Of a stretch of DNA of 64,000 nt, positions 1-53,330 are shown in pieces (position 1 is the first letter of the stretch; each line of letters opens with the position of its first letter). The position numbers were made by a program, and so were the translations under genes. This DNA is from a virus (taxonomy: Duplodnaviria > Heunggongvirae > Uroviricota > Caudoviricetes), in the IMG/VR virus record IMGVR_UViG_2875703104_000004. One strand, written 5' to 3'. The notes beneath the pieces were generated by a model, which was not told where the DNA came from, searched no databases, and saw only the letters and a list, made by a program, of their open reading frames with translations.

Positions 1-1244
1 ACGGAAACCACGCAGTTATTCCGTACGCGTTTTAAAGCCGTGAGTCCGAAACGGGTGGACACGCCTGGACACGGTATGGGGAACCGTTTTCTGCGGGCCG
101 GTGTGGAGGTCGATCGATATGGCCGTGCCGTCGCGTACCATATCTGTGAGGATGATTTTCCGTTCTCTGGTAGTGGACGATGGGAACGGATCCCGCGTGA
201 ACTTCCCACCGGGCGTCCGGCCATGCTGCATATTTTCGAGCCGGTGGAGGACGGGCAGACCCGTGGGGCTAATCAGTTTTACAGCGTCATGGAACGGCTG
301 AAGATGCTCGATTCCCTGCAGGCAACACAGCTTCAGTCGGCCATAGTGAAGGCGATGTATGCAGCGACGATTGAAAGTGAACTTGATACCGAAAAGGCCT
401 TTGAATATATCGCCGGCGCGCCACAGGAGCAGAAGGATAATCCGCTTATTAATATTCTGGAGAAGTTCTCCAGCTGGTATGACACGAATAACGTGACACT
501 GGGCGGTGTCAAAATTCCGCACCTTTTCCCTGGTGATGATCTGAAACTACAGACTGCGCAGGATTCAGACAATGGATTTTCTGCGCTTGAACAGGCGCTG
601 CTGCGGTATATCGCCGCCGGTCTTGGCGTTTCCTACGAACAGTTGTCCCGTGATTACTCGAAGGTCAGTTACTCAAGTGCCCGCGCCTCCGCCAATGAGT
701 CGTGGAACAGGCGCTGCTGCGGTATATCGCCGCCGGTCTTGGCGTTTCCTACGAACAGTTGTCCCGTGATTACTCGAAGGTCAGTTACTCAAGTGCCCGC
801 GCCTCCGCCAATGAGTCGTGGCGCTATTTTATGGGGCGGCGAAAATTTATTGCGGCCCGGCTGGCCACGCAGATGTTTTCCTGCTGGCTGGAAGAGGCAC
901 TTCTTCGGGGGATTATTCGTCCGCCACGGGCACGTTTTGATTTTTATCAGGCGCGATCAGCCTGGTCACGGGCAGAGTGGATTGGTGCCGGAAGAATGGC
1001 CATTGACGGGCTCAAGGAAGTCCAGGAATCAGTGATGCGCATTGAGGCCGGACTGAGCACGTATGAGAAAGAGCTGGCGCTGATGGGCGAGGATTATCAG
1101 GACATTTTCCGCCAGCAGGTCAGGGAATCTGCTGAGCGGCAAAAAGCCGGACTCTCACGTCCGGTGTGGATAGAGCAGGCGTATCAGCAGCAGATAGCGG
1201 AGAGTCGTAGGCCGGAAGAGGAGACAACACCACGTGAGACGTAA
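1..1244 (+). pseudogene. B: portal protein (lambda gpB-like), 5' end outside window, frame broken by a 116-bp tandem duplication
   Basis: Translation matches lambda-type portal (..RFLRAGVEVDRYGRAVAYHICEDDF.., C-terminal ..RMAIDGLKEVQESVMRIEAGLSTYEKELA..); N- and C-terminal parts lie in different frames (ORFs 40..1035 and 702..1244). Confidence 0.8.
589..820. repeat. perfect tandem direct duplication, 2 x 116 bp, inside portal gene
   Basis: Unit starting gaacaggcgctgctgcggtatatcgcc occurs at 589-704 and again at 705-820; 116 is not a multiple of 3. Confidence 0.9.
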
Positions 1245-2739
1245 TCTTTCACACATTATTGCCGCAGCATTCAATGAACCGCTGCTTCTGGAGCCCGCCT
1301 ATGCGCGGGTTTTCTTTTGCGCGCTCGGGCGCGAGATGGGGGCAGCAAGTCTTTCGGTACCACAACAGCAGGTACAGTTTGATGCTCCCGGAATGCTGGC
1401 TGAAACGGACGAGTACATGGCCGGAGGTAAACGACCGGCCCGTGTTTACCGGGTGGTGAACGGTATTGCTGTACTGCCGGTGACCGGCACGCTGGTGCAC
1501 CGGCTGGGTGGTATGCGGCCATTTTCCGGAATGACAGGCTATGACGGCATTGTCGCCTGTCTTCAGCAGGCAATGGCGGATAGCCAGGTGCGGGGCGTAC
1601 TGCTGGACATTGACAGTCCGGGCGGGCAGGCCGCCGGCGCGTTTGACTGCGCTGACATGATTTACCGCCTCCGTCAGCAGAAGCCGGTCTGGGCACTGTG
1701 CAATGACACGGCCTGTTCTGCAGCCATGCTGCTGGCGTCGGCCTGCTCCCGACGGCTGGTTACCCAGACATCCCGTATCGGCTCCATTGGCGTGATGATG
1801 AGCCATGTCAGCTATGCCGGTCATCTGGCGCAGGCCGGTGTGGATATCACGCTGATTTACTCAGGGGCGCACAAGGTGGATGGCAATCAGTTTGAAGCGT
1901 TGCCGGCAGAGGTTCGCCAGGACATGCAGCAGCGGATTGATGCGGCGCGCCGGATGTTTGCCGAAAAAGTGGCGATGTATACCGGTCTGTCTGTTGATGC
2001 CGTCACGGGAACAGAGGCTGCCGTTTTTGAAGGTCAGTCCGGCATTGAGGCCGGGCTGGCGGATGAATTAATCAATGCGTCGGATGCCATCAGTGTGATG
2101 GCCACGGCGCTGAACAGTAATGTCAGAGGAGGCACTATGCCGCAATTAACTGCAACGGAAGCCGCCGCGCAGGAGAACCAGCGAGTGATGGGGATCCTGA
2201 CATGCCAGGAAGCGAAAGGACGTGAACAGCTTGCCACGATGCTGGCAGGACAACAGGGCATGAGCGTTGAACAGGCCCGGGCGATTCTGGCCGCGGCGGC
2301 ACCGCAGCAGCCGGTGGCATCCACGCAGAGTGAAGCCGATCGCATTATGGCGTGTGAAGAAGCGAACGGTCGTGAACAACTGGCGGCAACGCTGGCGGCG
2401 ATGCCGGAGATGACGGTGGAAAAAGCCCGCCCGATCCTGGCTGCTTCACCGCAGGCGGATGCCGGACCATCACTCCGTGATCAGATCATGGCACTGGATG
2501 AGGCAAAAGGGGCTGAGGCGCAGGCTGAACAGCTGGCTGCCTGCCCGGGAATGACAGTGGAGAGCGCCCGGGCTGTGCTGGCTGCGGGATCAGGTAAGGC
2601 AGAACCGGTCTCTGCATCCACAACCGCCATGTTTGAACATTTCATGGCGAACCATTCACCGGCAGCGGTACAGGGTGGCGTGGCACAGACGTCAGCAGAC
2701 GGTGATGCGGACGTGAAAATGCTCATGGCCATGCCATGA
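1234..2739 (+). CDS. C: prohead protease / scaffold protein (lambda gpC-Nu3-like, S49 peptidase family)
   Basis: 501-aa ORF from GTG overlapping the B stop; motifs FNEPLLLEPAYARVFFCAL and SRIGSIGVMM fit lambda C; C-terminal part has three ~40-aa repeats. Confidence 0.85.
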   Translation: MRRNLSHIIAAAFNEPLLLEPAYARVFFCALGREMGAASLSVPQQQVQFDAPGMLAETDEYMAGGKRPARVYRVVNGIAVLPVTGTLVHRLGGMRPFSGMTGYDGIVACLQQAMADSQVRGVLLDIDSPGGQAAGAFDCADMIYRLRQQKPVWALCNDTACSAAMLLASACSRRLVTQTSRIGSIGVMMSHVSYAGHLAQAGVDITLIYSGAHKVDGNQFEALPAEVRQDMQQRIDAARRMFAEKVAMYTGLSVDAVTGTEAAVFEGQSGIEAGLADELINASDAISVMATALNSNVRGGTMPQLTATEAAAQENQRVMGILTCQEAKGREQLATMLAGQQGMSVEQARAILAAAAPQQPVASTQSEADRIMACEEANGREQLAATLAAMPEMTVEKARPILAASPQADAGPSLRDQIMALDEAKGAEAQAEQLAACPGMTVESARAVLAAGSGKAEPVSASTTAMFEHFMANHSPAAVQGGVAQTSADGDADVKMLMAMP

Positions 2740-2775
2740 AGTCAGTGCTGACCATCAATAGGAGGTTTTTACAAT

Positions 2776-3123
2776 ATGGTGACGAAAACCATCACTGAAC
2801 AGCGTGCGGAAGTACGTATTTTTGCCGGTAATGATCCGGCTCATACCGCCACAGGCAGCAGCGGGATTTCCTCGCCAACACCGGCACTGACGCCCCTGAT
2901 GCTGGATGAAGCCACCGGGAAACTGGTGGTCTGGGACGGACAGAAAGCCGGTAGTGCGGTTGGCATACTGGTACTGCCGCTTGAAGGCACAGAGACGGCG
3001 CTGACGTATTACAAGTCGGGAACCTTTGCGACGGAGGCAATCCACTGGCCTGAAAGTGTGGATGAACACAAAAAGGCCAACGCCTTTGCTGGCAGTGCCC
3101 TGAGTCACGCGGCGCTGCCGTAA
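2776..3123 (+). CDS. D: head decoration protein (lambda gpD-like)
   Basis: 115-aa ORF with GGAGG RBS, at the position and size expected for D between C and E; Gly/Ser-rich N-terminal region. Confidence 0.8.
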   Translation: MVTKTITEQRAEVRIFAGNDPAHTATGSSGISSPTPALTPLMLDEATGKLVVWDGQKAGSAVGILVLPLEGTETALTYYKSGTFATEAIHWPESVDEHKKANAFAGSALSHAALP

Positions 3124-3130
3124 CACGTTA

Positions 3131-3152
3131 TCAGGCCACCGCGGTGGCCTGA
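3131..3152. promoter_or_regulatory. 22-bp perfect palindrome in the D-E intergenic region
   Basis: tcaggccaccgcggtggcctga is its own reverse complement; no T-run follows, so not a classical terminator. The second module has a one-mismatch copy at about 25083-25102. Confidence 0.4.
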
Positions 3153-3180
3153 CTGATTTCTGAATGAAAGGAACTGATTT

Positions 3181-4209
3181 ATGGGATTGTTTACGACCCG
3201 CCAGTTACTCGGTTATACCGAACAAAAAGTTAAATTTCGTGCGCTGTTTCTGGAGCTGTTTTTCCGCCGTACGGTGAATTTCCATACCGAAGAGGTGATG
3301 CTGGACAAAATTACCGGAAAAACGCCGGTGGCGGCCTATGTCTCCCCGGTTGTTGAAGGAAAAGTGCTGCGTCATCGTGGTGGTGAAACCCGCGTGTTGC
3401 GTCCGGGCTACGTCAAGCCGAAACACGAATTTAATTACCAGCAGGCGGTTGAGCGCCTTCCTGGTGAAGATCCATCTCAACTGAATGATCCGGCTTACCG
3501 CCGTCTGCGTATCATTACCGATAACCTCAAACAGGAAGAGCACGCGATTGTCCAGGTGGAAGAAATGCAGGCGGTAAATGCTGTGTTGTATGGCAAATAC
3601 ACCATGGAAGGAGACCAGTTCGAGAAAATTGAGGTCGATTTTGGCAGGTCGACGAAGAATAACATCACTCAGGGTAGTGGTAAGGAGTGGTCAAAACAGG
3701 ATCGTGACACGTTCGATCCTACACATGATATTGACCTCTACTGCGACCTGGCCAGCGGTCTTGTGAATATTGCCATTATGGACGGTACCGTCTGGCGTCT
3801 TCTGAATGGTTTTAAGCTGTTCCGCGAAAAACTGGATACCCGTCGCGGTTCAAATTCTCAACTCGAAACGGCAGTGAAAGATCTGGGCGCAGTGGTGTCC
3901 TTCAAGGGGTATTACGGCGATCTGGCCATTGTGGTGGCGAAAACGTCTTATATAGCAGAAGACGGTATCGAAAAACGTTATCTTCCAGATGGCATGCTGG
4001 TTCTGGGGAATACTGCTGCAGATGGGATCCGTTGTTACGGTGCCATTCAGGATGCTCAGGCGTTGTCCGAAGGTGTGGTGGCCTCTTCCCGTTATCCGAA
4101 ACACTGGCTGACGGTAGGGGATCCCGCCCGTGAATTTACCATGACGCAGTCCGCGCCGCTGATGGTGTTGCCGGACCCGGATGAGTTTGTGGTGGTACAG
4201 GTGAAATAA
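3181..4209 (+). CDS. E: major capsid protein (lambda gpE-like)
   Basis: 342-aa ORF; motifs PGYVKPKHE, QVEEMQAV, KLDTRRGSNS.LETAVKDLG and GDPAREFTM.QSAPLM fit lambda E. Confidence 0.9.
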   Translation: MGLFTTRQLLGYTEQKVKFRALFLELFFRRTVNFHTEEVMLDKITGKTPVAAYVSPVVEGKVLRHRGGETRVLRPGYVKPKHEFNYQQAVERLPGEDPSQLNDPAYRRLRIITDNLKQEEHAIVQVEEMQAVNAVLYGKYTMEGDQFEKIEVDFGRSTKNNITQGSGKEWSKQDRDTFDPTHDIDLYCDLASGLVNIAIMDGTVWRLLNGFKLFREKLDTRRGSNSQLETAVKDLGAVVSFKGYYGDLAIVVAKTSYIAEDGIEKRYLPDGMLVLGNTAADGIRCYGAIQDAQALSEGVVASSRYPKHWLTVGDPAREFTMTQSAPLMVLPDPDEFVVVQVK

Positions 4210-4215
4210 TCCGTG

Positions 4216-4246
4216 AGCGGGGGCGAAATGCCCCCGTGTCTTTTTT
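4216..4246 (+). terminator. rho-independent terminator-like hairpin downstream of E
   Basis: GC stem cggggg/cccccg with loop cgaaatg followed by TTTTTT, directly after the E stop. Confidence 0.55.
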
Positions 4247-4260
4247 CACAGGGGGCTGAT

Positions 4261-4635
4261 ATGGCAACGAAAGAGCAAAATCTGAAACGGCTTGATGAAC
4301 TGGCCCTGATTCTGGGGCGTGAGCCGGATATATCCGGGAGTGCCGCAGAGATAGCGCAGCGGGTGGCAGAATGGGAAGAGGAAATGCAGTCATCCGGCGA
4401 TGATGTACAGGTTATGAATATGGATATCCGGGAGCGGGAAACCGCGGCTCATGATGTTCGTGAGGAAACATCCGGCGCGTTAACGCGCATCAGAGTTCTG
4501 ACCTGCCTCCATCTCTGTGGCGTTGATGGTGAAACGGGGGAATCCGTTGAGCTTGCGGATGTTGGTCGGGTGATTCTGATTATGTCCTCAGATGCAAAAA
4601 CACACGTTGATGGTGGAATGGCTGTTTATGCGTGA
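4261..4635 (+). CDS. FI: DNA packaging / head assembly protein (lambda FI-like)
   Basis: Acidic ~124-aa ORF starting MATKEQNLKRL, between E and FII as in lambda. Confidence 0.7.
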   Translation: MATKEQNLKRLDELALILGREPDISGSAAEIAQRVAEWEEEMQSSGDDVQVMNMDIRERETAAHDVREETSGALTRIRVLTCLHLCGVDGETGESVELADVGRVILIMSSDAKTHVDGGMAVYA

Positions 4636-4981
4636 TTTTCAGAATGCCTTTGATGCCGCCCTTGCCGGGGTGGACAGTACGATTGTTGAAGTGATGGGCA
4701 TCAGTGCGCAGTTCACCTCCGGTGCACAGCGTGGCGGCGAGGTTCATGGCGTTTTTGACGATCCGGAGTCGCTGGGTTTTGCCAGTAGTGGGATCCGTAT
4801 TGAAGGAAGTAACCCGTCATTATTTGTGCTTACGGATACGGTTTGTGCTGTACGGCGTGGTGACACGCTGACCATTAACGGCGAGATGTTCTGGGTGGAC
4901 CGTGTTTCTCCGGATGACGGAGGGAGTTGTTATCTCTGGCTCAACCGGGGGCAACCACCTGCCGCCAGCCGTCGCCGCTGA
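4628..4981 (+). CDS. FII: head-tail joining protein (lambda FII-like)
   Basis: 117-aa ORF overlapping the FI stop; motifs GVFDDPE, GDTLTI and C-terminal FWVDRVSPDDGGSCYLWLNRGQPPA. Confidence 0.85.
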   Translation: MRDFQNAFDAALAGVDSTIVEVMGISAQFTSGAQRGGEVHGVFDDPESLGFASSGIRIEGSNPSLFVLTDTVCAVRRGDTLTINGEMFWVDRVSPDDGGSCYLWLNRGQPPAASRRR

Positions 4982-4992
4982 AAGGGGGATGT

Positions 4993-5963: not shown

Positions 5964-5970
5964 GGACGAT

Positions 5971-6711: not shown

Positions 6712-6726
6712 TCCGGAGAGTCAGCG

Positions 6727-15974: not shown

Positions 15975-16799
15975 ATGGCAGTACAGATTTCAGGCGTGCT
16001 GAAAGACGGTGCAGGAAAACCGATACAGAACTGCACCATTCAGCTCAAAGCAAAACGTAACAGCACCACGGTTGTGGTGAACACGGTGGCCTCAGAAAAT
16101 CCGGATGAAGCCGGACGTTACAGCATGGATGTCGAGTATGGCCAGTACAGCGTTATCCTGCTGGTTGAAGGTTTTCCGCCTTCACATGCCGGGGCCATCA
16201 CCGTGTATGAGGATTCTAAGCCGGGGACATTGAATGATTTTCTGGGCGCTGCAACAGAAGATGATGTTCGTCCGGAGGCACTGTATCGTTTTGAAAAGAT
16301 GGTGGAAGAGGTGGCACGCAACGCTGAAGCCGCCTCTCAGAGCGCAGCGGCAGCAAAGAAATCAGAAACAGCAGCGGCATCGTCCAGGAATGCGGCGAAA
16401 ACATCAGAGACGAATGCAGGTAACAGCGCGAAAGCGGCAGCTTCTTCAAAAACAGCCGCACAAAACGCAGCAACAGCGGCAGAACGTTCAGAGACAAATG
16501 CCCGTGCGTCAGAAGAAGCCTCCGCAGACAGTGAAGAGGCTTCCCGCCGTAATGCAGAGTCAGCCGCTGAAAATGCCGGAGTCGCCACCACAAAAGCGCG
16601 GGAGGCCGCAGCAGACGCAACAAAGGCCGGGCAGAAAAAGGATGAGGCTCTGTCGGCAGCGATAATTAAAAACGATGCACACCGGGTTTTTACCGCGTTA
16701 ATGATTCGCGGGTTTATCCCGGTGCGATGGTGGAAGAAACAGGAAGCTGTATTACAGAAAGTGCTACTACTGTATCCCGATGCGATGTATGTAATGTGA
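15975..16799 (+). pseudogene. stf: side tail fibre protein, N-terminal fragment only
   Basis: Starts MAVQISGVLKDGAGKPIQNCTIQLKAKRNSTTVVVNTVASENPDEAGRYSMDVEYGQYSV with Ala/Ser-rich repeats; ORF ends after ~275 codons in unrelated sequence. Confidence 0.7.
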
Positions 16800-16881
16800 G
16801 TCAGATAATGGCACAGGATGTGGTGATGTGGCAGTCTGGAACACAGGATATATTGTCAGAATAAGACCCGTAGGAATAAAA

Positions 16882-17208
16882 ATGAAAAGACGCCTTTTAC
16901 TACTTTTTCTGTTATCTGTCCTGGCAGTGGGATGCTCGCAGCAAAAAGCTGATGAGCCCCGGCAATTAGTGACGGTGTATCCACGATATCCGGAATATGC
17001 TGCAGCAAATTATATCAAGGGGCTGGTTGAGGTTAAGTTCGATATTGGTGCTGATGGGACTGTGACACGGATCGTTTTTCTCCGCTCAGAGCCTCATAAT
17101 TTGTTTCGTGATGAAGTGGTGAAGGCCATGGCGAAATGGCGATTTGAAAAGAATCGCCCCTGTCAGGGAGTGAAGAGACAATTTATCTTTACGCCGTCAC
17201 GTCCTTGA
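16882..17208 (+). CDS. small lipoprotein with TonB C-terminal-like domain
   Basis: MKRRLLLLFLLSVLAVGCSQ is a signal peptide with lipobox; the rest (YP.YP..A....G.VEVKF.I.ADG.V..I....S.......EV..A...WRF) fits the TonB_C pattern. Confidence 0.6.
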   Translation: MKRRLLLLFLLSVLAVGCSQQKADEPRQLVTVYPRYPEYAAANYIKGLVEVKFDIGADGTVTRIVFLRSEPHNLFRDEVVKAMAKWRFEKNRPCQGVKRQFIFTPSRP

Positions 17209-17300
17209 TGCTTCCAGGTAGAGAGGGGCTGGANGCAGGAGAAAAATGAAAGAGCCAGCGGTTATATTTTTGTCATGGCTGACGAGGAATGATGGAAGAA

Positions 17301-17323
17301 GGCGTTGTATGCCACACAACGCC
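17301..17323. terminator. hairpin between convergent genes (possible bidirectional terminator)
   Basis: ggcgttgt-atgccac-acaacgcc, a perfect 8-bp stem flanked by T-rich sequence on both strands. Confidence 0.45.
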
Positions 17324-17330
17324 TCACTGT

Positions 17331-17823
17331 TCATTTCTTCTTTTTCTCTGGTGGAACCCGATGAATAAGAGTTGCACTGGTTTCCGATGAGATGGCGATA
17401 TACTCGGGCAAAGTATGCTGGCAGTTTTCCAACTGGTCAAAAATACCTGCTCTCGTCTGTTGCAATGCCTGCAGCATGCGGCGGCAATGCGCCTTGCTTT
17501 TACTAACCATCTTTCCTTCCTCTATCAGTCGCTGCGTGAACTCATCATGNAATACCAGGTAAATGCGGATGTTATCGGTTTTGGCTACGCAGCATAGTAC
17601 AAAACGGACAGGTGCATCCCGGGACGGGGGAGGCGTCACATGTCCCTGTGATGGTTGTTCCGGGTAATGNACTGTGTGGGGCATAAAAATGTCCGATAAT
17701 TTTACTTTCTACCGCAGTTAGTTGATTCGTTGGTCCTGGTAGCACATTGGGCGAGGATTTAAATGCCAGGCAACTGAAGGATGATGTNGCAAGGGAGATA
17801 GCGAGAATATTTCTGATTTTCAT
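17331..17823 (-). CDS. candidate secreted protein gene(s); frame uncertain because of ambiguous bases
   Basis: Minus-strand ORF from ATG 17823 begins MKIRNILAISL.TSSFSCLA (signal-peptide-like) with several Cys; an overlapping ORF 17331..17684 continues in another frame; n bases at 17550, 17670 and 17788. Confidence 0.3.
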
Positions 17824-17838
17824 TTGATGATGCCTCTG

Positions 17839-18138
17839 TGTGAAATGACGGTAAACGACGCACTTGTGCCGGCACATAATAGCAAGCACCATAATAGATC
17901 AGATTCGATTCTTGCTGTAAGTGATAATTATTCTCGTTTTCGGGTCCTTTCCGTCGATCCAACAGGTTACGGGGCGGCGACCTCGCGGTGTGAAATGACG
18001 GTAAACGACGCACTTGTGCCGGCACATAATAGCAAGCACCATAATAGATCAGATTCGATTCTTGCTGTAAGTGATAATTATTCTCGTTTTCGGGTCCTTT
18101 CCGTCGATCCAACAGGTTACGGGGCGGCGACCTCGCGG
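17839..18138. repeat. tandem duplication (2 x 150 bp) of the phage right-end / cosQ-cosN segment
   Basis: tgtgaaatgacggtaaacgacgcac...ggttacggggcggcgacctcgcgg occurs at 17839-17988 and 17989-18138; each copy ends in a cosN-like GGGCGGCGACCT. Confidence 0.85.
18122..18133 (+). other. cosN-like cohesive-end sequence GGGCGGCGACCT (second copy at 17972-17983)
   Basis: Followed by CGCGGGTTTTCGCTATTTATGAAAATTTT and the Nu1 gene, the arrangement remembered for the lambda left end. Confidence 0.75.
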
Positions 18139-20751: not shown

Positions 20752-20941
20752 ACTACAGGCGCTGCGTCAGGCGCGCCTTGATTTATTAACCGGTAAACGG
20801 GTGGTGTCTGTCCAGAAAGATGGTCGCAGAATTGAATATACGGCGGCCTCTCTGGATGAGCTTAACCGTGCGATCAATGATGCTGAGTTGGTACTGGGGA
20901 CAACCCGCCGTCGCCGTCGTCCGCTGGGAGTGAGGTTATGA
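20735..20941 (+). CDS. W: head-tail joining protein W
   Basis: 68-aa ORF with LTGKRVVSVQKDGRRIEYTAASL; overlaps the A stop and the B start. Confidence 0.8.
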   Translation: MVTVAELQALRQARLDLLTGKRVVSVQKDGRRIEYTAASLDELNRAINDAELVLGTTRRRRRPLGVRL

Positions 20942-22646
20942 AACGAACGCCTGTCCTGATTGATGTGAACGGCGTTCCGCTTCGGGAGAGCCTCAGCTAC
21001 AACGGGGGCGGCGCAGGATTTGGCGGGCAAATGGCGGAGTGGTTGCCACCGGCGCAGAGTGCCGATGCGGCCCTGCTGCCCGCGTTGCGTCTGGGGAATG
21101 CCCGGGCAGATGATCTGGTGCGCAATAACGGGATAGCGGCCAATGCGGTGGCCCTGCATAAGGATCACATTGTCGGGCATATGTTTCTTATCAGCTACCG
21201 CCCGAACTGGCGCTGGCTGGGGATGCGGGAGACCGCGACAAAAAGTTTTGTCGATGAGGTGGAGGCGGCCTGGTCAGAATACGCAGAAGGGATGTTTGGT
21301 GAGATCGACGTGGAAGGGAAACGCACGTTTACGGAATTTATCCGTGAAGGTGTGGGCGTTCATGCGTTTAACGGCGAAATCTTTGTGCAGCCGGTCTGGG
21401 ATACGGAGAGCACGCAACTGTTTCGTACGCGTTTTAAAGCCGTGAGTCCGAAACGGGTGGACACGCCAGGACACGGTATCGGGAACCGTTTTCTGCGGGC
21501 CGGTGTGGAGGTTGATCGATATGGCCGTGCCGTTGCGTACCATATCTGTGAGGATGATTTTCCTCGCTCCGGGAGTGGACGATGGGAACGGATCCCGCGT
21601 GAACTTCCCACCGGGCGTCCGGCCATGCTGCATATTTTCGAGCCGGTGGAGGACGGGCAGACCCGTGGGGCCAACCAGTTTTACAGCGTCATGGAACGGC
21701 TGAAGATGCTCGATTCCCTGCAGGCAACACAGCTTCAGTCGGCCATTGTCAAGGCGATGTATGCAGCGACAATTGAAAGTGAACTGGATACCGAAAAGGC
21801 CTTTGAATATATCGCCGGTGCGCCGCAGGGGCAGAAGGATAATCCGCTTATTAATATTCTGGAGAAGTTCTCCAGCTGGTATGACACGAATAACGTGACG
21901 CTGGGCGGTGTCAAAATTCCGCACCTTTTCCCTGGTGATGATCTGAAACTACAGACAGCGCAGGATTCAGACAATGGATTTTCTGCGCTTGAACAGGCGC
22001 TGCTGCGGTATATCGCCGCCGGTCTTGGCGTTTCCTACGAACAGTTGTCCCGTGATTACTCGAAGGTCAGTTACTCAAGTGCCCGCGCCTCCGCCAATGA
22101 GTCGTGGAACAGGCGCTGCTGCGGTATATCGCCGCCGGTCTTGGCGTTTCCTACGAACAGTTGTCCCGTGATTACTCGAAGGTCAGTTACTCAAGTGCCC
22201 GCGCCTCCGCCAATGAGTCGTGGCGCTATTTTATGGGGCGGCGAAAATTTATTGCGTCCCGGCTGGCCACGCAGATGTTTTCCTGCTGGCTGGAAGAGGC
22301 ACTTCTGCGGGGGATTATCCGTCCGCCACGGGCACGTTTTGATTTTTATCAGGCGCGTTCAGCCTGGTCACGGGCTGAGTGGATTGGTGCCGGAAGAATG
22401 GCCATTGACGGGCTCAAGGAGGTTCAGGAATCGGTGATGCGTATTGATTCCGGACTGAGCACGTATGAGAAAGAGCTGGCGCTGATGGGCGAGGATTATC
22501 AGGACATTTTCCGCCAGCAGGTCAGGGAATCTGCAGAGCGGGAAAAAGCCGGACTCTCACGTCCGGTGTGGATAGCGCAGGCGTATCAGCAGCAGATAGC
22601 GGAGAGTCGCAGGCCGGAAGAGGAGACAACACCACGTGAGACGTAA
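20938..22646 (+). pseudogene. B: portal protein (lambda gpB-like), frame broken by the same 116-bp tandem duplication
   Basis: ORF 20938..22437 plus C-terminal ORF 22104..22646 in another frame; paralogue of 1..1244. Confidence 0.8.
21991..22222. repeat. tandem direct duplication, 2 x 116 bp, same sequence as 589-820
   Basis: gaacaggcgctgctgcgg...gagtcgtg at 21991-22106 and 22107-22222. Confidence 0.9.
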
Positions 22647-24689
22647 TCTTTCACACATTATTGCAGCAGCATTCAATGAACCGCTGCTTCTGGAGCCCGC
22701 CTATGCGCGGGTTTTCTTTTGCGCGCTCGGGCGCGAGATGGGGGCAGCAAGTCTTTCGGTACCGCAACAGCAGGTACAGCTTGATGCTCCCGGGATGCTG
22801 GCTGAAACGGACGAGTACATGGCCGGAGGTAAACGACCGGCCCGTGTTTACCGGGTGGTGAACGGTATTGCGGTACTGCCGGTGACCGGCACGCTGGTGC
22901 ACCGGCTGGGGGGGATGCGGCCATTTTCCGGAATGACTGGCTATGACGGCATTGTCGCCTGTCTTCAGCAGGCAATGGCAGATAGCCAGGTGCGGGGCAT
23001 ACTGCTGGACATTGACAGTCCGGGCGGGCAGGCCGCCGGCGCGTTTGACTGCGTTGACATGATTTACCGCCTCCGGCAGCAGAAGCCGGTCTGGGCACTG
23101 TGCAATGACACGGCCTGTTCTGCAGCCATGCTGCTGGCGTCGGCCTGCTCCCGACGGCTGGTTACCCAGACATCCCGTATCGGCTCCATTGGCGTGATGA
23201 TGAGCCATGTCAGCTATGCCGGTCATCTGGCGCAGGCCGGTGTGGATATCACGCTGATTTACTCAGGGGCGCACAAGGTGGATGGCAATCAGNGGTGCAC
23301 CGGCTGGGTGGTATGCGGCCATTTTCCGGAATGACAGGCTATGACGGCATTGTCGCCTGTCTTCAGCAGGCAATGGCGGATAGCCAGGTGCGGGGCGTAC
23401 TGCTGGACATTGACAGTCCGGGCGGGCAGGCCGCCGGCGCGTTTGACTGCGCTGACATGATTTACCGCCTCCGTCAGCAGAAGCCGGTCTGGGCACTGTG
23501 CAATGACACGGCCTGTTCTGCAGCCATGCTGCTGGCGTCGGCCTGCTCCCGACGGCTGGTTACCCAGACATCCCGTATCGGCTCCATTGGCGTGATGATG
23601 AGCCATGTCAGCTATGCCGGTCATCTGGCGCAGGCCGGTGTGGATATCACGCTGATTTANNCNGGGGCGCACAAGGTGGATGGCAATCAGTTTGAAGCGT
23701 TGCCGGCAGAGGTTCGCCAGGACATGCAGCAGCGGATTGATGCGGCGCGCCGGATGTTTGCCGAAAAAGTGGCGATGTATACCGGTCTGTCTGTTGATGC
23801 CGTCACGGGAACAGAGGCTGCCGTTTTTGAAGGTCAGTCCGGCATTGAGGCCGGGCTGGCGGATGAATTAATCAATGCGTCGGATGCCATCAGTGTGATG
23901 GCCACGGCGCTGAACAGTAATGTCAGAGGAGGCACTATGCCGCAATTAACTGCAACGGAAGCCGCCGCTGCCGTTTTTGAAGGTCAGTCCGGCATTGAGG
24001 CCGGGCTGGCGGATGAATTAATCAATGCGTCGGATGCCATCAGTGTGATGGCCACGGCGCTGAACAGTAATGTCAGAGGAGGCACTATGCCGCAATTAAC
24101 TGCAACGGAAGCCGCCGTGCAGGAGAACCAGCGAGTGATGGGGATCCTGACATGCCAGGAAGCGAAAGGACGTGAACAGCTTGCCACGATGCTGGCAGGG
24201 CAACAGGGCATGAGCGTTGAACAGGCCCGGGCGATTCTGGCCGCGGCGGCACCGCAGCAGCCGGTGGCATCCGCACAGAGTGAAGCCGATCGCATTATGG
24301 CGTGTGAAGAAGCGAACGGTCGTGAACAACTGGCAGCAACGCTGGCGGCGATGCCGGAGAGGACGGTGGAAAAAGCCCGCCCGATCCTGGCTGCTTCACC
24401 GCAGGCGAATGCCGGGCCCTCACTTCGTGATCAGATCATGGCACTGGATGAGGCAAAAGGGGCTGAGGCGCAGGCTGAACAGCTGGCTGCCTGCCCGGGA
24501 ATGACTGTGGAGAGCGCCCGGGCTGTGCTGGCTGCGGGATCAGGTAAGGCAGAACCGGTCTCTGCATCCACAACCGCCCTGTTTGAACATTTCATGGCGA
24601 ACCATTCACCGGCTGCGGTCCAGGGGGGCGTGTCACAGGCGTCAGAAGACGGTGATGCGGACGTGAAAATGCTCATGGCCATGCCATGA
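22636..24689 (+). CDS. C: prohead protease / scaffold (gpC-like), second copy, with internal duplications
   Basis: Same motifs as 1234..2739; frame interrupted at n 23293 where 22896-23292 is repeated at 23294-23690; additional in-frame 150-bp tandem duplication at 23821-24120. Confidence 0.7.
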
Positions 24690-24725
24690 AGTCAGTGCTG
24701 AACATCAATACGAGGTTTTAACAAT

Positions 24726-26159: not shown

Positions 26160-26165
26160 TCCGTG

Positions 26166-29525: not shown

Positions 29526-32217
29526 TCTTGTTATTGACCTGAGTCTGGATGCTGTCCGTTTCGATGAGCAGATGAGCCGGGTAAGGCGTCATTTTTCAGG
29601 TCTGGATACCGACGCCAGAAAAACCGCCAGTGCTGTTGAACAGGGCCTGAGCCGCCAGGCGCTGGCTGCACAAAAAGCCGGGATTTCCGTCGGGCAGTAT
29701 AAAGCGGCCATGCGAACCCTGCCCGCACAGTTTACGGATATCGCCACGCAGCTTGCCGGTGGTCAGAATCCCTGGCTGATCCTGCTGCAACAGGGCGGTC
29801 AGGTGAAGGACTCCTTCGGCGGGATGATCCCCATGTTCAGGGGGCTTGCCGGTGCGATCACCCTGCCGATGGTCGGGGTCACCTCGCTGGCGGTGGCGAC
29901 AGGTGCGCTGGTGTACGCCTGGTACCAGGGAGATTCCACGCTTTCAGCGTTTAATAAAACCCTGGTTCTTTCCGGTAATCAGTCCGGACTGACTGCCGAT
30001 CGCATGCTGACGCTCTCCAGAGCCGGACAGGCCGCAGGGCTGACGTTTAACCAGGCGAGTGAGTCACTGGCAGCCCTGGTGAATGCCGGTGTGCGTGGTG
30101 GTGAACAGTTTGATGCCATCAACCAGAGTGTCGCGCGTTTTGCTTCTGCATCCGGTGTGGAGGTGGACAAGGTTGCAGAGGCTTTCGGAAAACTGACCAC
30201 TGACCCGACGTCGGGGCTGATTGCGATGGCGAAGCAGTTCCATAACGTGACGGCGGAGCAGATTGCGTATGTTGCTCAGTTGCAGCGTTCCGGCGATGAA
30301 GCCGGGGCATTGCAGGCGGCGAACGAGGCCGCAACGAAAGGGTTTGATGACCAGACCCGACGCTTGAAAGAGAACATGGGCACGCTGGAAACCTGGGCAG
30401 ACAGGACAGCACGGGCATTCAAATCCATGTGGGATGCGGTGCTGGATATTGGTCGTCCTGATACCGCGCAGGAGATGCTGATTAAGGCAGAGGCCGCGTT
30501 TAAGAAAGCGGACGATATCTGGAATCTGCGCAAGGATGATTATTTTGTTAACGATGAAGCGCGGGCGCGTTACTGGGATGATCGTGAAAAGGCCCGTCTT
30601 GCGCTTGAAGCCGCCCGAAAGAAGGCTGAGCAGCAGAGTCAACAGGACAAAAATGCGCAGCAGCAGAGCGATACCGAAGCGTCACGGCTGAAATATACCG
30701 AAGAGGCGCAGAAGGCTTACGAACGGCTGCAGACGCCGCTGGAGAAATATACCGCCCGTCAGGAAGAACTGAACAAGGCACTGAAAGACGGGAAAATCCT
30801 GCAGGCGGATTACAACACGCTGATGGCGGCGGCGAAAAAGGATTATGAAGCGACGCTGAAAAAGCCGAAACAGTCCGGCGTGAAGGTGTCTGCGGGCGAT
30901 CGTCAGGAAGACAGTGCTCATGCTGCCCTGCTGACGCTTCAGGCNGAACTCCGGACGCTGGAGAAGCATGCCGGAGCAAATGAGAAAATCAGCCAGCAGC
31001 GCCGGGATTTGTGGAAGGCGGAGAGTCAGTTCGCGGTACTGGAGGAGGCGGCGCAACGTCGCCAGCTGTCTGCACAGGAGAAATCCCTGCTGGCGCATAA
31101 AGATGAGACGCTGGAGTACAAACGCCAGCTGGCTGCACTTGGCGACAAGGTTACGTATCAGGAGCGCCTGAACGCGCTGGCGCAGCAGGCGGATAAATTC
31201 GCACAGCAGCAACGGGCAANNNNNNNNNNNNNNNNNNNNNTGGCGCATAAAGATGAGACGCTGGAGTACAAACGCCAGCTGGCTGCACTTGGCGACAAGG
31301 TTACGTATCAGGAGCGCCTGAACGCGCTGGCGCAGCAGGCGGATAAATTCGCACAGCAGCAACGGGCAAAACGGGCCGCCATTGATGCGAAAAGCCGGGG
31401 GCTGACTGACCGGCAGGCAGAACGGGAAGCCACGGAACAGCGCCTGAAGGAACAGTATGGCGATAATCCGCTGGCGCTGAATAACGTCATGTCAGAGCAG
31501 AAAAAGACCTGGGCGGCTGAAGACCTGCTTCGCGGGAACTGGATGGCAGGCCTCAGGTCCGGCTGGAGTGAGTGGGAAGAGAGTGCCACGGACAGTATGT
31601 CGCAGGTAAAAAGTGCAGCCACGCAGACCTTTGACGGTATTGCACAGAATATGGCAGCGATGCTGACCGGCAGCGAACAGAACTGGCGTGGTTTCACCCG
31701 TTCTGTGCTGTCCATGCTGACAGAGATTTTTCTGAAGCAGGCGATGGTGGGGATTGTCGGGAGTATCGGCAGCGCTATTGGCGGGGCTGTTGGTGGCGGC
31801 GCATCCGCGTCAGGCGGTACAGCCATTCAGGCCGCTGCGGCGAAATTCCATTTTGCAACCGGAGGATTTACGGGAACCGGCGGCAAATATGAGCCAGCGG
31901 GGATTGTTCACCGTGGTGAATTTGTCTTCACGAAGGAGGCAACCAGCCGGATTGGTGTCGGCAACCTGTATCGTCTGATGCGCGGGTATGCGGAAGGTGG
32001 TTATGTCGGCGGTGCCGGAAGTCCGGCGCAGATGCGGCGGGCCGAAGGTATTAATTTTAATCAGAACAATCACGTGGTGATTCAGAACGACGGTATCAAC
32101 GGACAGGCGGGGTCGCAGCTGATGAAGGCGGTGTATGACATGGCCCGCAAGGGGGCACAGGATGAACTCCGGCTGCAGTTGCGTGATGGCGGTCTGTTAT
32201 CAGGGAGCGGTCGATGA
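29506..32217 (+). CDS. H: tail tape measure protein H (contains an N-run and a redundant block)
   Basis: 903-aa ORF paralogous to 7558..10054; N-run at 31220-31240 flanked by duplicated ~132-bp blocks. Confidence 0.8.
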   Translation: MSQPVGDLVIDLSLDAVRFDEQMSRVRRHFSGLDTDARKTASAVEQGLSRQALAAQKAGISVGQYKAAMRTLPAQFTDIATQLAGGQNPWLILLQQGGQVKDSFGGMIPMFRGLAGAITLPMVGVTSLAVATGALVYAWYQGDSTLSAFNKTLVLSGNQSGLTADRMLTLSRAGQAAGLTFNQASESLAALVNAGVRGGEQFDAINQSVARFASASGVEVDKVAEAFGKLTTDPTSGLIAMAKQFHNVTAEQIAYVAQLQRSGDEAGALQAANEAATKGFDDQTRRLKENMGTLETWADRTARAFKSMWDAVLDIGRPDTAQEMLIKAEAAFKKADDIWNLRKDDYFVNDEARARYWDDREKARLALEAARKKAEQQSQQDKNAQQQSDTEASRLKYTEEAQKAYERLQTPLEKYTARQEELNKALKDGKILQADYNTLMAAAKKDYEATLKKPKQSGVKVSAGDRQEDSAHAALLTLQXELRTLEKHAGANEKISQQRRDLWKAESQFAVLEEAAQRRQLSAQEKSLLAHKDETLEYKRQLAALGDKVTYQERLNALAQQADKFAQQQRAXXXXXXXXAHKDETLEYKRQLAALGDKVTYQERLNALAQQADKFAQQQRAKRAAIDAKSRGLTDRQAEREATEQRLKEQYGDNPLALNNVMSEQKKTWAAEDLLRGNWMAGLRSGWSEWEESATDSMSQVKSAATQTFDGIAQNMAAMLTGSEQNWRGFTRSVLSMLTEIFLKQAMVGIVGSIGSAIGGAVGGGASASGGTAIQAAAAKFHFATGGFTGTGGKYEPAGIVHRGEFVFTKEATSRIGVGNLYRLMRGYAEGGYVGGAGSPAQMRRAEGINFNQNNHVVIQNDGINGQAGSQLMKAVYDMARKGAQDELRLQLRDGGLLSGSGR

Positions 32218-33620: not shown

Positions 33621-33696
33621 GCCTGCGCAAGGGACCATCGGTGTGTGCCGGTGGTCTTTATATTGTTGTGAGCTTCCGGATAACGGGAGACGGGGT

Positions 33697-34062
33697 ATGT
33701 ACCAGATGGAAAAAATCACAACAGGTGTGTCATACACCACGTCAGCGGTGGGAACGGGCTACTGGTTCCTGCAGTTGCTGGACAGGGTTTCCCCGTCTCA
33801 GTGGGCGGCAATAGGCGTGCTGGGGAGTCTGCTGTTTGNNNNNNNNNNNNNNNNNNNNNAAAAAATCACAACAGGTGTGTCATACACCACGTCAGCGGTG
33901 GGAACGGGCTACTGGTTCCTGCAGTTGCTGGACAGGGTTTCCCCGTCTCAGTGGGCGGCAATAGGCGTGCTGGGGAGTCTGCTGTTTGGGCTGCTGACAT
34001 ATCTGACTAACCTGTATTTCAAAATCAGAGAGGACCGGCGTAAGGCGGCGCGGGGAGAGTAA
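33697..34062 (+). CDS. S: class II holin / pinholin (phage 21 S-like); ORF inflated by a redundant block around an N-run
   Basis: [26 protein letters not shown]...[40 protein letters not shown]: two TM segments, charged C-terminus, dual-start M..M; 33711-33838 repeated after the N-run 33839-33859. Confidence 0.75.
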
Positions 34063-50553: not shown

Positions 50554-51408
50554 TGCAGGATATTCACGAAGAAAGTCTGAACGAGTCGGTTAAATCAGAG
50601 CAGTCACCGCGGGTGGTACTCTGGGAAATCGACCTGACGGTACAGGGCGGTGAGCGGTATTTTTTCTGTAATGAGCTGAATGAAAAAGGGGAGCCGGTCA
50701 CCTGGCAGGGGCGTAAGTATGAGGCATACCCGATTGACGGCAGCGGCTTTGAGATGAACGGCCGGGGCAGCAGTGCCAGACCGTCGCTGACGGTGTCCAA
50801 TCNGTGGTGAGCGGTATTTTTTCTGTAATGAGCTGAATGAAAAAGGGGAGCCGGTCACCTGGCAGGGGCGTAAGTATGAGGCATACCCGATTGACGGCAG
50901 CGGCTTTGAGATGAACGGCCGGGGCAGCAGTGCCAGACCGTCGCTGACGGTGTCCAATCTGTTCGGTCTGGTCACCGGGATGGCGGAAGACCTGCAGAGT
51001 CTGGTGGGGGCCACGGTGGTCCGCCGCCGGGTGTATGCCCGTTTTCTGGATGCGGTGAATTTCGTTGCGGGCAATCCGGAGGCGGACCCGGAGCAGGAGC
51101 TGAGTGACCGCTGGGTGGTGGAGCAGATGTCGCAGCTGACAGCCATGACGGCCTCGTTTGTGCTGGCTACACCGACCGAGACGGACGGGGCGCTGTTTCC
51201 CGGTCGCATCATGCTGGCGAACACCTGTATGTGGGATTACCGGGGAGATGAATGCGGGTATAACGGTCCTGCGGTGGCGGATGAGTTCGATAAACCCACC
51301 ACGGATATCCGTAAGGACAGATGCAGCAAGTGCATGCGCGGGTGTGAACTGCGCAGGAATGTCGGCAATTTTGGCGGTTTCCTTTCCATTAATAAACTTT
51401 CGCAGTAA
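50553..51408 (+). CDS. L: minor tail protein L (contains a redundant block around n 50803)
   Basis: L N-terminus to about codon 84, n at 50803, then L restarts from about codon 33 and runs to the LSINKLSQ stop at 51408. Confidence 0.7.
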
Positions 51409-52576
51409 ATCCCGGTTTATGACACAGACTGAATCAGCGATTCTGGCGCATGCCCGGCGGTGTGTGCCTGCGGAGTCGTGCGGCTTAGTGGTGAGAACGC
51501 CGGAGGGGGAGCGGTATATCCCTTGTGTGAATATCTNCCAATCTGTTCGGTCTGGTCACCGGGATGGCGGAAGACCTGCAGAGTCTGGTGGGGGCCACGG
51601 TGGTCCGCCGCCGGGTGTATGCCCGTTTTCTGGATGCGGTGAATTTCGTTGCGGGCAATCCGGAGGCGGACCCGGAGCAGGAGCTGAGTGACCGCTGGGT
51701 GGTGGAGCAGATGTCGCAGCTGACAGCCATGACGGCCTCGTTTGTGCTGGCCACACCGACCGAGACGGACGGGGCGCTGTTTCCCGGTCGTATCATGCTG
51801 GCGAACACCTGTATGTGGACCTACCGCTCTGATGAGTGTGGTTACACGGGCGGGGCAGTGGCGGATGAGTTCGATAAACCCACCACGGATATCCGTAAGG
51901 ACAGATGCAGCAAGTGCATGCGCGGGTGTGAACTGCGCAGGAATGTCGGCAATTTTGGCGGTTTCCTTTCCATTAATAAACTTTCGCAGTAAATCCCGGT
52001 TTATGACACAGACTGAATCAGCGATTCTGGCGCATGCCCGGCGGTGTGTGCCTGCGGAGTCGTGCGGCTTNCTTTGAGATGAACGGCCGGGGCAGCAGTG
52101 CCAGACCGTCGCTGACGGTGTCCAATCTGTTCGGTCTGGTCACCGGGATGGCGGAAGACCTGCAGAGTCTGGTGGGGGCCACGGTGGTCCGCCGCCGGGT
52201 GTATGCCCGTTTTCTGGATGCGGTGAATTTCGTTGCGGGCAATCCGGAGGCGGACCCGGAGCAGGAGCTGAGTGACCGCTGGGTGGTGGAGCAGATGTCG
52301 CAGCTGACAGCCATGACGGCCTCGTTTGTGCTGGCTACACCGACCGAGACGGACGGGGCGCTGTTTCCCGGTCGCATCATGCTGGCGAACACCTGTATGT
52401 GGGATTACCGGGGAGATGAATGCGGGTATAACGGTCCTGCGGTGGCGGATGAGTTCGATAAACCCACCACGGATATCCGTAAGGACAGATGCAGCAAGTG
52501 CATGCGCGGGTGTGAACTGCGCAGGAATGTCGGCAATTTTGGCGGTTTCCTTTCCATTAATAAACTTTCGCAGTAA
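51409..52576. repeat. two redundant 584-bp blocks, each K 5' end + n + L 3' part
   Basis: L stop codons at 51408, 51992 and 52576 (period 584 bp); n at 51539 and 52071 marks the jump from K sequence back into L. Confidence 0.8.
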
Positions 52577-52586
52577 ATCCCGGTTT

Positions 52587-53330
52587 ATGACACAGACTGA
52601 ATCAGCGATTCTGGCGCATGCCCGGCGGTGTGTGCCTGCGGAGTCGTGCGGCTTAGTGGTGAGAACGCCGGAGGGGGAGCGGTATATCCCTTGTGTGAAT
52701 ATCTCTGCAGAGCCGGAGGCGTATTTTCGTATTGCACCGGAAGACTGGCTGCGGGCAGAGATGCAGGGGGAGATTGTGGCACTGGTCCACAGTCATCCCG
52801 GTGGGCTGCCCTGGCTGAGCGAGGCTGACCGGCGGCTGCAGATAAAAAGCGCACTGCCCTGGTGGCTGGTCTGCCGGGGTGACATTCACAAATTCCGCTG
52901 CGTGCCGCACCTGACGGGACGGCGCTTTGAGCACGGGGTGACGGACTGTTACACCCTGTTCCGGGATGCATACCATCTGGCGGGGACTGAAATGCCGGAT
53001 TTTCATCGCGAGGATGACTGGTGGCGCAACGGTCAGAACCTTTACCTGGACAATATGGCGGTCACCGGCTTTTACCGGGTGCCCCTGTCCTCTGCACAGG
53101 CGGGCGATATTCTGCTGTGCTGCTTTGGTGCTTCGGTACCGAACCATGCCGCCATTTACTGCGGCAACGGTGAGCTGCTTCACCATCTGCCTGAACAACT
53201 GAGTAAACGGGAGAGGTATTCCGAAAAATGGCAACGACGAACGCATTCTGTCTGGCGTCACCGCCACTGGCACGCATCTGCCTTCACGGGGATTTGCAAC
53301 GATTTGGCCGCCGCCTCAGCCTGTATGTGA
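52587..53330 (+). CDS. K: tail assembly protein K
   Basis: Starts MTQTESAILAHARRC..; HSHPGG motif; paralogue of 11084..11827. Confidence 0.85.
   Translation: MTQTESAILAHARRCVPAESCGLVVRTPEGERYIPCVNISAEPEAYFRIAPEDWLRAEMQGEIVALVHSHPGGLPWLSEADRRLQIKSALPWWLVCRGDIHKFRCVPHLTGRRFEHGVTDCYTLFRDAYHLAGTEMPDFHREDDWWRNGQNLYLDNMAVTGFYRVPLSSAQAGDILLCCFGASVPNHAAIYCGNGELLHHLPEQLSKRERYSEKWQRRTHSVWRHRHWHASAFTGICNDLAAASACM

What the first reader, a model, noticed from the sequence alone, without database searches (positions are those of the whole stretch)
589..820. Identical frame-breaking 116-bp tandem duplication in both portal gene copies
The same 116-bp unit is tandemly duplicated at 589-820 and at 21991-22222, in two portal copies that otherwise differ by point substitutions. 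The duplication shifts the frame (116 = 3 x 38 + 2), so both portals are split into two ORFs. An independent identical duplication in two diverged paralogues is unlikely; this points to gene conversion between prophages, inheritance of a defective portal, or a systematic assembly artefact.
Basis: seen in the sequence. Interest (0 to 1): 0.5.

Follow-up and report, generated by a model that had tools for sequence, protein, structure and literature searches.

The report
Assembly-join artefact in portal genes
The identical 116-base duplication that seems to break both phage portal genes is almost certainly an assembly error: two overlapping short-read pieces were butted together without removing their overlap, and the genes are most likely intact.

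Summary
A perfect 116-bp tandem duplication lies at 589-820 and again at 21991-22222. Each one splits a lambda-family portal gene (PF05136) into two ORFs.

The biological readings are not supported. The window is a mosaic of pieces, each about 100% identical to known E. coli prophages. Successive pieces overlap in reference coordinates by 116, 150 (four times), 157, 398 or about 584 nt. Every overlap appears as a perfect tandem duplication, and several have an N at the join.

Joins occur only where the two prophage paralogues are identical for 183 nt or more. None occurs in identical runs of 144 nt or less. The duplication edges lie 149-150 nt from the nearest paralogue-distinguishing SNP. Eight checked single Ns lie exactly on SNPs between the two reference prophages, which marks collapsed repeats.

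The portal duplication is centred in a 183-nt identical run, with 33 nt on each side and flanking SNPs exactly 300 nt apart. This is why it is the same in both copies.

Deleting one unit restores portals 100% identical to intact reference proteins. The junction is absent from 5,426 complete E. coli genomes, from the GTDB species representatives, IMG/VR and JGI metagenomes, and from the phage records.

Verdict: not a real feature. Interest is very low.

The parts
589..704 (+). Copy A, first 116-bp unit. It is the 3' end of the left assembly piece (window 1-704/705 = ABU 83972 prophage locus L002 8001-8705).
705..820 (+). Copy A, second 116-bp unit. It is the 5' end of the right assembly piece (window 705-9068 = L002 8589-16952, 100% identical). 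The false junction lies at 704|705 or 705|706.
1..1244 (+). Portal gene of prophage A, lambda gpB family, cut by the window start. With one unit removed, its 376 aa are 100% identical to the intact ABU 83972 portal.
555..855 (.). The nearest A-versus-B SNPs (555 and 855) bracket the duplication. They are exactly 300 nt apart, with 33 identical nt on each side of the duplicated block. Both carry the native A alleles.
21991..22106 (+). Copy B, first 116-bp unit. It is the end of the piece window 17988-22107 = SCU-204 prophage locus L003 12407-16526 (100% identical).
22107..22222 (+). Copy B, second 116-bp unit. It is the start of the piece window 22107-23292 = L003 16410-17595.
20938..22646 (+). 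Portal gene of prophage B, 1,709 nt = 1,593 + 116. With one unit removed it encodes 530 aa, 100% identical to the intact portal WP_001538596.1.
21957..22257 (.). The same bracketing SNPs in copy B, carrying the native B alleles and again 300 nt apart.
16661..17988 (+). A collapsed piece shared by both paralogues (TonB-family gene region). Its four single Ns lie exactly on SNPs between the two reference prophages. It ends one base before the first A/B difference.
17838..18138 (+). A sister artefact: a perfect 150-nt duplication at a piece join. The first A/B SNP (18139) follows the second copy immediately.
22896..23690 (+). A sister artefact in the S49 protease gene of copy B: a 398-nt duplication at 97% identity. 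The pieces are joined by a single N at 23293. The second unit carries prophage-A alleles and has Ns at the A/B triple SNP.
23817..24117 (+). A sister artefact: a perfect 150-nt duplication. The first A/B SNP (24118) follows the second copy immediately.
31070..31390 (+). A sister artefact in the tape-measure gene of copy B: a 150-nt duplication. The last 21 nt of the first copy are N (31220-31240).
33689..34010 (+). A sister artefact in the lysis region: a 150-nt duplication. The last 21 nt of the first copy are N (33839-33859).
50649..52704 (+). Sister artefacts in the tail L/K genes: a 157-nt duplication and three ~584-nt versions of the same segment in series. The pieces are separated by single Ns at 50803, 51537 and 52071.

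Best explanation
The duplication is a false one created when the sequence was assembled; it is not in the DNA. The source genome carries at least two lambda-like prophages, A and B. Their portal genes differ by about 3% but share one stretch of 183 identical bases. Reads or k-mers of about 150 nt cannot span 183 identical bases, so the assembly broke there in both copies. The allele-specific piece from the left reaches as far as sequence anchored on the last left-hand SNP can reach (SNP+149/150). The piece from the right begins where sequence anchored on the first right-hand SNP begins (SNP-150/149). These two pieces truly overlap by about 116 nt. They were placed end to end without merging the overlap, so it appears twice in tandem. 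The geometry depends only on the shared 183-nt run, so both copies receive the identical duplication. Shown here: the mosaic of overlapping pieces, the locking of edges to SNPs, the 150-nt threshold, the Ns on SNP positions and at joins, the restoration of perfect ORFs, and the absence of the junction elsewhere. Inferred: which program did this, and whether the join involved a one-base placeholder later filled in (k or read length 150) or plain abutment (k=151).
For: 1) Against two reference prophages, the window resolves into pieces of about 99.5-100% identity whose reference coordinates step backwards at each join. The steps are 116 (window 705), 150 (17988), 116 (22107), 398 (23293), 150 (23967), 150 (31240) and 150 (33859), and there are blunt jumps at 16661 and 33182-33193.
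2) For both N-free 150-nt duplications, the first A/B-distinguishing base comes immediately after the second copy (18139 and 24118). The allele-specific piece therefore starts exactly 150 nt before the SNP, and the shared piece ends at SNP-1.
3) The portal duplication has 33 identical nt on each side and flanking SNPs exactly 300 nt apart, which puts the junction 149-150 nt from each SNP. The predicted length, 149+149-183+1 = 116, matches the observed length.
4) Every run of 183 nt or more that is identical between native A and native B (572, 315, 200, 183, 185, 304, 284) coincides with a join, a duplication or a collapsed piece. Runs of 101-144 nt outside the collapsed piece carry no join or duplication.
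5) Eight single Ns (17234, 17550, 17670, 17788, 23660, 23661, 23663, 30945) lie exactly on positions where the two reference prophages differ. This is what a consensus over collapsed repeats looks like. Other single Ns (23293, 50803, 51537, 52071) sit exactly at joins between overlapping pieces.
6) Removing one unit gives portals 100% identical in protein sequence to intact reference portals, with no other decay.
7) 1,852 complete E. coli genomes hold this portal region. The 30 listed all have a single copy: 851 nt of query span 735 nt of record. An intact 81-nt junction matches none of 5,426 genomes and no phage record. The 30-nt junction is absent from the GTDB species representatives, IMG/VR and JGI metagenomes. 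The 499-aa frameshifted product is not on record among 153 billion gene positions.
8) False duplications flanking gaps on one scaffold, and at the boundaries between identical and divergent sequence, are a documented class of assembly error (PMC9516828).
Against: No reads are available, so the artefact is inferred from the sequence pattern and has not been observed directly. The portal joins carry no N, unlike several of the other joins. One simple rule does not reproduce every join to the base. k=151 with plain abutment fits the 150-nt duplications but needs a one-base merge at the portal. k=150 with a one-base filler fits all three N-free joins, but an even k is unusual. The 398-nt and 584-nt cases look like alternative alleles placed in series, not k-1 overlaps. 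Prophage A shows no join at the 185-nt and 304-nt runs where prophage B does.
Confidence: 0.93

Rival explanations
1. A real tandem duplication arose in one prophage's portal gene and was copied into the other prophage by gene conversion. Both portals would then be genuine pseudogenes.
For: The duplicated block and its immediate flanks are identical in both copies. Lambdoid prophages within one genome are known to recombine (general knowledge). One base of microhomology (G) lies at the junction.
Against: The identical tract (556-854) is only the native 183-nt identical run plus the duplication. The same 183-nt run exists between the unrelated reference prophages. The SNPs 33 nt on either side keep their native alleles, so there is no sign of a conversion tract. 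The exact 149/150-nt spacing to both SNPs would have to be a coincidence, roughly 1 in 10^4 of the possible placements within the run. It would also have to coincide with six or more sister duplications that follow the same rule and carry Ns. The junction is found nowhere else.
Confidence: 0.03
2. The duplication is ancestral: a defective portal inherited by both prophage lineages before they diverged by about 3%.
For: It would explain the identical position and unit in both copies.
Against: The two units are 100% identical to each other, while the genes themselves have diverged by about 3%. Each copy is otherwise 100% identical to a different intact single-copy portal present in many genomes. 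No other genome holds the junction. A pseudogene of that age would also show further decay, and none is seen.
Confidence: 0.005
3. The sequence was damaged after assembly. For example, a script or graph-path exporter concatenated overlapping segments or windows of about 150 nt around variants without trimming them, or the window is a deliberately constructed chimera. This is still not biology; only the step that produced it differs.
For: The left side reaches SNP+149 and the right side starts at SNP-150, which looks like half-open coordinate slicing. There are blunt joins without homology at 16661 and 33182-33193. Three phage late regions follow one another with no early regions between them. 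The window's junction is absent from every public collection searched.
Against: The Ns on paralogue SNP positions and the restriction of joins to runs of 183 nt or more are what a genuine short-read consensus would give. Nothing singles out a post-processing step over the assembler or scaffolder itself.
Confidence: 0.035

Closest known systems
False duplications at contig joins in draft assemblies (Ko et al. 2022, Genome Biol, PMC9516828; read)
   Same: Duplicated copies lie adjacent on one scaffold, often with a gap character between them. They arise at the boundary between identical and divergent sequence, produce false gene disruptions or gains, and are absent from better assemblies.
   Different: The paper describes haplotypes of diploid vertebrates and duplications of kilobases to megabases. 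Here the 'haplotypes' are paralogous prophages in a bacterium, the duplications are 116-584 nt, and the portal joins have no gap character left.
Untrimmed k-1 overlaps between de Bruijn unitigs, or single-N joins for undetected negative gaps in scaffolders (my own knowledge of assembler behaviour; not tested against any specific program)
   Same: There are four duplications of exactly 150 nt. Their edges are locked to the first distinguishing SNP. Single Ns sit between overlapping pieces.
   Different: The program is unknown. The lengths of 116, 157, 398 and 584 nt are not a fixed k-1. They need either read-anchored piece ends or alternative alleles placed in series.
Lambda gpB-type portal protein (Pfam PF05136) of E. 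coli lambdoid prophages
   Same: Both genes match PF05136 (E = 6e-98). With one unit removed they equal WP_001538596.1 (copy B) and the ABU 83972 portal (copy A) at 100%.
   Different: None, once the artefact is removed.
Genuine prophage decay and inter-prophage recombination in multi-lysogenic E. coli (general knowledge)
   Same: Several related lambdoid prophages sit in one genome, and there are apparent frameshifts in structural genes.
   Different: Real decay would not be locked to a 150-nt read or k-mer geometry, would not come with Ns on paralogue SNPs, and would normally be shared with related strains.

Membership tests
Assembly false duplication (untrimmed overlap at a piece join) | The duplication boundary coincides with a boundary between independently assembled pieces. 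| tested here: met
   Reference coordinates step back by 116 exactly at window 705 and 22107. Pieces on either side are about 99.75-100% identical to the reference.
Assembly false duplication (untrimmed overlap at a piece join) | The position is governed by repeat structure and read or k-mer length, not by biology. | tested here: met
   Joins occur only in A/B-identical runs of 183 nt or more, and none in runs of 144 nt or less. Duplication edges lie 149-150 nt from the nearest SNP at 705, 17988, 22107 and 23967.
Assembly false duplication (untrimmed overlap at a piece join) | Gap or ambiguity characters lie between or next to the duplicated copies. | tested here: inconclusive
   This is met for the sister duplications: single N at 23293, 50803, 51537 and 52071, and 21 Ns at 31220-31240 and 33839-33859. 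The two portal junctions themselves contain no N.
Assembly false duplication (untrimmed overlap at a piece join) | The duplication is absent from independent assemblies of the same sequence. | tested here: met
   The 30 listed of 1,852 genomes holding this region have a single copy. The junction is absent from all collections searched.
Assembly false duplication (untrimmed overlap at a piece join) | No reads span the junction, and depth over the copies is abnormal. | not testable with these tools
   No read data are available.
Lambda-family portal protein (PF05136) | A significant match to the family profile over its full length. | tested here: met
   The reference and restored protein match profile positions 2-354 of 354 with E = 3e-100. 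The split ORFs match 2-348 and 310-354.
Genuine tandem-duplication pseudogene spread by gene conversion | A conversion tract: identity between the copies extends beyond what the unconverted alleles share. | tested here: not met
   The identical tract equals the native 183-nt run seen between the unrelated reference prophages. The flanking SNPs keep their native alleles.
Genuine tandem-duplication pseudogene spread by gene conversion | The junction is present in the DNA (reads, amplicon or related strains). | tested here: not met
   For related strains and public collections, there is no junction anywhere. Reads and amplicons are not testable here.

The most novel reading that the evidence does not exclude
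The duplication is physically present in at least one of the two prophages. It would be a very recent slippage event that inactivated the portal and was then homogenised into the second prophage by a short gene-conversion tract. The resemblance to the 150-nt join geometry would then be coincidental.
Probability: 0.03. Interest if true: 0.25.

Novelty: not a real feature. Interest (0 to 1): 0.03.

Why it matters
It matters only as quality control. Taken at face value, the window suggests two portal pseudogenes, a broken S49 protease, broken tape-measure genes, triplicated tail genes and three phage late regions fused head to tail. Any claim of defective or cryptic prophages, gene conversion or gene-family expansion drawn from this sequence would be false. 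Three simple flags identify such windows: perfect tandem duplications of about one read length, edges locked to paralogue SNPs, and Ns on paralogue SNP positions. Windows showing them can be filtered out before biological interpretation.

Tried and rejected
1) I searched for the junction elsewhere, to test whether the duplication is inherited or real. The searches covered complete E. coli genomes, phage records, GTDB species representatives, IMG/VR, JGI metagenomes and an exact-product look-up. All were empty. This also means the source record could not be identified.
2) Three of the duplications span 2L+1 bases. I considered this as a sign of a 'k-mer overlap trimmed by one base' and rejected it. 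A one-base extension is expected by chance in about 44% of cases, and the algebra (K + K[1:]) does not produce it.
3) I tried to fit one exact rule to all joins. k=151 with plain abutment fits 17988 and 23967 but needs a one-base merge at the portal. k or read length 150 plus a one-base filler fits all three N-free joins. Neither explains the 398-nt and 584-nt cases, which look like alternative alleles placed in series, or the two joins that skip 63-64 nt (9068 and 32787). I therefore do not name the assembler.
4) I considered recurrent slippage at a hot spot. Only 1 nt of microhomology flanks the unit, so nothing supports it.
5) I considered whether the 21-N runs are inserted gaps or masked bases. 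The 150-nt period holds across them with N as a wildcard in both cases, so they replace real bases and are not added spacers. Why exactly 21 nt is unexplained. One idea is that no uniquely mapped reads cover the end of the first copy.

Full report
**Observation.** Tandem Repeats Finder reports two arrays, 589-821 and 21991-22223. Each has period 116, 2.0 copies, 100% matches, no indels and the same consensus unit. The repeat finder shows four identical copies at 589, 705, 21991 and 22107. The surrounding sequences are two copies of one gene. They differ by 46 substitutions over the first 1,490 aligned bases, with none between 556 and 854. The gene is a lambda-family portal, PF05136. The split ORFs match profile positions 2-348 and 310-354 of 354. 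Because 116 = 3x38+2, the frame shifts. Copy B reads as 20938-22437 (499 aa, ending in 108 out-of-frame residues) plus 22104-22646 (180 aa). Copy A is split in the same way.

**What else is in the window.** The portal duplication is not an isolated event. The same scans found these further repeats:
- perfect 150-nt duplications at 17838-18138 and 23817-24117;
- a 97% identical 398-nt duplication at 22896-23690;
- a 157-nt duplication at 50649-50959;
- three ~584-nt copies at 50954-52704.

A scan that treats N as a wildcard added two more 150-nt duplications, at 31070-31390 and 33689-34010. In each of these, the last 21 nt of the first copy are N. At least seven perfect or near-perfect tandem duplications of about 116-584 nt in 64 kb of phage structural genes, four of them exactly 150 nt, is not a pattern that biology produces.

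**The window is a mosaic of overlapping pieces.** I fetched two reference prophages: ABU 83972 (L002, 'A') and SCU-204 (L003, 'B'). I then aligned the window to them locally. Each piece is about 99.5-100% identical to a reference, but the reference coordinates step backwards at every join:

| Window | Reference | Note |
|---|---|---|
| 1-705 | L002 8001-8705 | |
| 705-9068 | L002 8589-16952 | back 116 |
| 16661-17988 | L003 11230-12557 | |
| 17988-22107 | L003 12407-16526 | back 150 |
| 22107-23292 | L003 16410-17595 | back 116 |
| 23294-23968 | L002 9378-10052 | a prophage-A-like piece inside prophage B; back 398 |
| 23967-31219 | L003 17722-24974 | back 150 |
| 31241-32787 | L003 24846-26392 | back 150, counting the 21 Ns |

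The tail L/K region at 50534-52072 behaves in the same way. Two joins instead skip about 63-64 nt (9068 and 32787). Two more are blunt jumps with no homology: the A tail-fibre gene runs into the region upstream of the B terminase at 16661, and the B tail gene runs into a lysis cassette at 33182-33193. The result is three phage late regions in series with no early regions between them.

**The joins are locked to paralogue SNPs at about 150 nt.**
- For the duplication at 17838-18138, the first base that distinguishes A from B is 18139, immediately after the second copy.
- For 23817-24117, it is 24118.
- In both cases the allele-specific piece therefore begins exactly 150 nt before the first SNP it contains, and the preceding shared piece ends one base before that SNP. 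This is the geometry of adjacent unitigs or read-anchored contigs with a 150-nt overlap left untrimmed.
- For the portal, the nearest A/B SNPs are at 555 and 855. They are exactly 300 nt apart, with 33 identical nt on each side of the duplicated block, and both keep their native alleles in each copy.
- The native identical run is 183 nt. A left piece reaching SNP+149 and a right piece starting at SNP-149, with one base between them, gives a period of 149+149-183+1 = 116, as observed. Equivalently, k=151 pieces merged on one shared G give the same sequence.
- This geometry depends only on the shared 183-nt run, so it is the same for both prophages.

**A predictive test.** I listed every run of 100 nt or more that is identical between the native A and native B references.
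- All runs above about 150 nt coincide with a join, a duplication or a collapsed piece in the window. They are 572, 315 and 200 nt in the TonB-family region, 183 nt in the portal, 185 and 304 nt in the S49 protease, and 284 nt in the tape measure.
- The runs of 101-144 nt outside the collapsed TonB-region piece coincide with no join or duplication.
- The threshold therefore lies between 144 and 183 nt.

**Ns mark collapsed repeats.**
- Eight checked single Ns (17234, 17550, 17670, 17788, 23660, 23661, 23663, 30945) lie exactly on positions where the two reference prophages differ. Reads from two prophages were evidently piled onto one consensus.
- Other single Ns (23293, 50803, 51537, 52071) sit exactly between pieces that overlap each other.
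- Gaps between duplicated copies on one scaffold, and errors at boundaries between identical and divergent sequence, are the published hallmarks of false duplications (PMC9516828).

**The genes are otherwise perfect, and the junction is unique.**
- Deleting one unit restores a 530-aa portal in copy B that is 100% identical to WP_001538596.1. It also restores a 376-aa partial portal in copy A that is 100% identical to the ABU 83972 protein.
- Of 5,426 complete E. coli genomes, 1,852 hold this region. The 30 listed all have a single copy, with 851 nt of query spanning 735 nt of record.
- No genome has an intact junction, and neither does any phage record.
- The 30-nt junction is absent from the GTDB species representatives, IMG/VR and JGI metagenomes.
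- The 499-aa frameshifted product is not on record among 153 billion gene positions.
- The 150-nt duplication at 17838 is likewise absent from the references: 4,840 nt of query span 4,690 nt of record.

**Rival explanations.**
- Gene conversion would need a tract whose ends both fall within the 33-nt flanks. It would leave no trace beyond the natively identical run, and it would have to mimic the 150-nt geometry by coincidence.
- Ancestral inheritance is contradicted by the perfect identity of the two units against about 3% divergence between the genes. It is also contradicted by intact relatives that are 100% identical to each copy.
- Hot-spot slippage has only 1 nt of microhomology in its favour.
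- A post-assembly concatenation error, or a deliberately constructed chimera, cannot be told apart from an assembler or scaffolder error with the evidence here. It leads to the same verdict.

**Limits.** There are no reads, so the artefact is inferred from the sequence pattern. The portal junctions themselves carry no N. I could not fit every join with one rule or identify the program. The exact length of the 21-N runs is unexplained.

**Verdict.** Confidence that it is an artefact of assembly or concatenation is about 0.96 in total. Of this, 0.93 is for untrimmed overlap of pieces limited to about 150 nt. Novelty: not a real feature. Interest: 0.03.

Noticed in passing
window 16655-16670 and 33180-33195: Two blunt joins have no homology. 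The prophage-A tail-fibre gene (L002 24634) runs straight into the region upstream of the prophage-B TonB-family gene and terminase. The prophage-B tail L/K gene (L003 26850) runs straight into a lysis cassette (L003 8001-like). As a result, three phage late regions follow one another with no early regions. These are probably scaffold misjoins.
   Followed up: partly
window 9065-9069 and 32787-32788: At two joins the reference sequence is skipped instead of duplicated. About 64 nt are missing from the prophage-A tape-measure gene, which splits it into ORFs 7558-9087 and 9020-10054. About 63 nt are missing from a prophage-B tail gene, between short direct repeats (ACGGTG). The first lies inside a 284-nt run that is identical in both paralogues, so it is probably the same class of join error.
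   Followed up: partly
window 31220-31240 and 33839-33859: Two runs of exactly 21 Ns each replace the last 21 nt of the first copy of a 150-nt false duplication. The first run is centred on the A/B SNP at L003 24985. Why the length is 21 is unexplained; one possibility is that there was no uniquely mapped read coverage there when the consensus was called.
   Followed up: partly
window 59120-59291: A cluster of 11 single Ns lies within about 170 nt of the tail-fibre region (58970-59383 = L003 32423-32836 at 96.9%). It is probably another stretch collapsed across several paralogues.
   Followed up: no
window 43077-43562: An imperfect 162-nt (54-aa) tandem repeat of about 2.3-3 copies at 65-86% identity lies inside ORF 42922-43983 (353 aa). 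The ORF sits just downstream of the portal of the third phage and has a weak CBM_5_12 hit, below the Pfam cut-off. Unlike the perfect duplications, this looks like a genuine repeat-domain protein.
   Followed up: partly
window 37051-50500: The third late region has a different head module: a large terminase (PF03354/PF20441), a fused prohead protease and major capsid protein of 673 aa (PF04586 + PF05065), then a PF04860 portal after the capsid gene. From about 50534 it joins tail-tip genes nearly identical to prophage B (L003 26129-33364).
   Followed up: partly
window 22896-23690: The second unit of the 398-nt duplication inside the prophage-B S49 protease gene carries prophage-A alleles at seven SNPs and Ns at the A/B triple SNP. 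An A-type or collapsed piece was therefore inserted in series into prophage B. It splits the protease into ORFs 22636-23334 and 23295-24689.
   Followed up: yes
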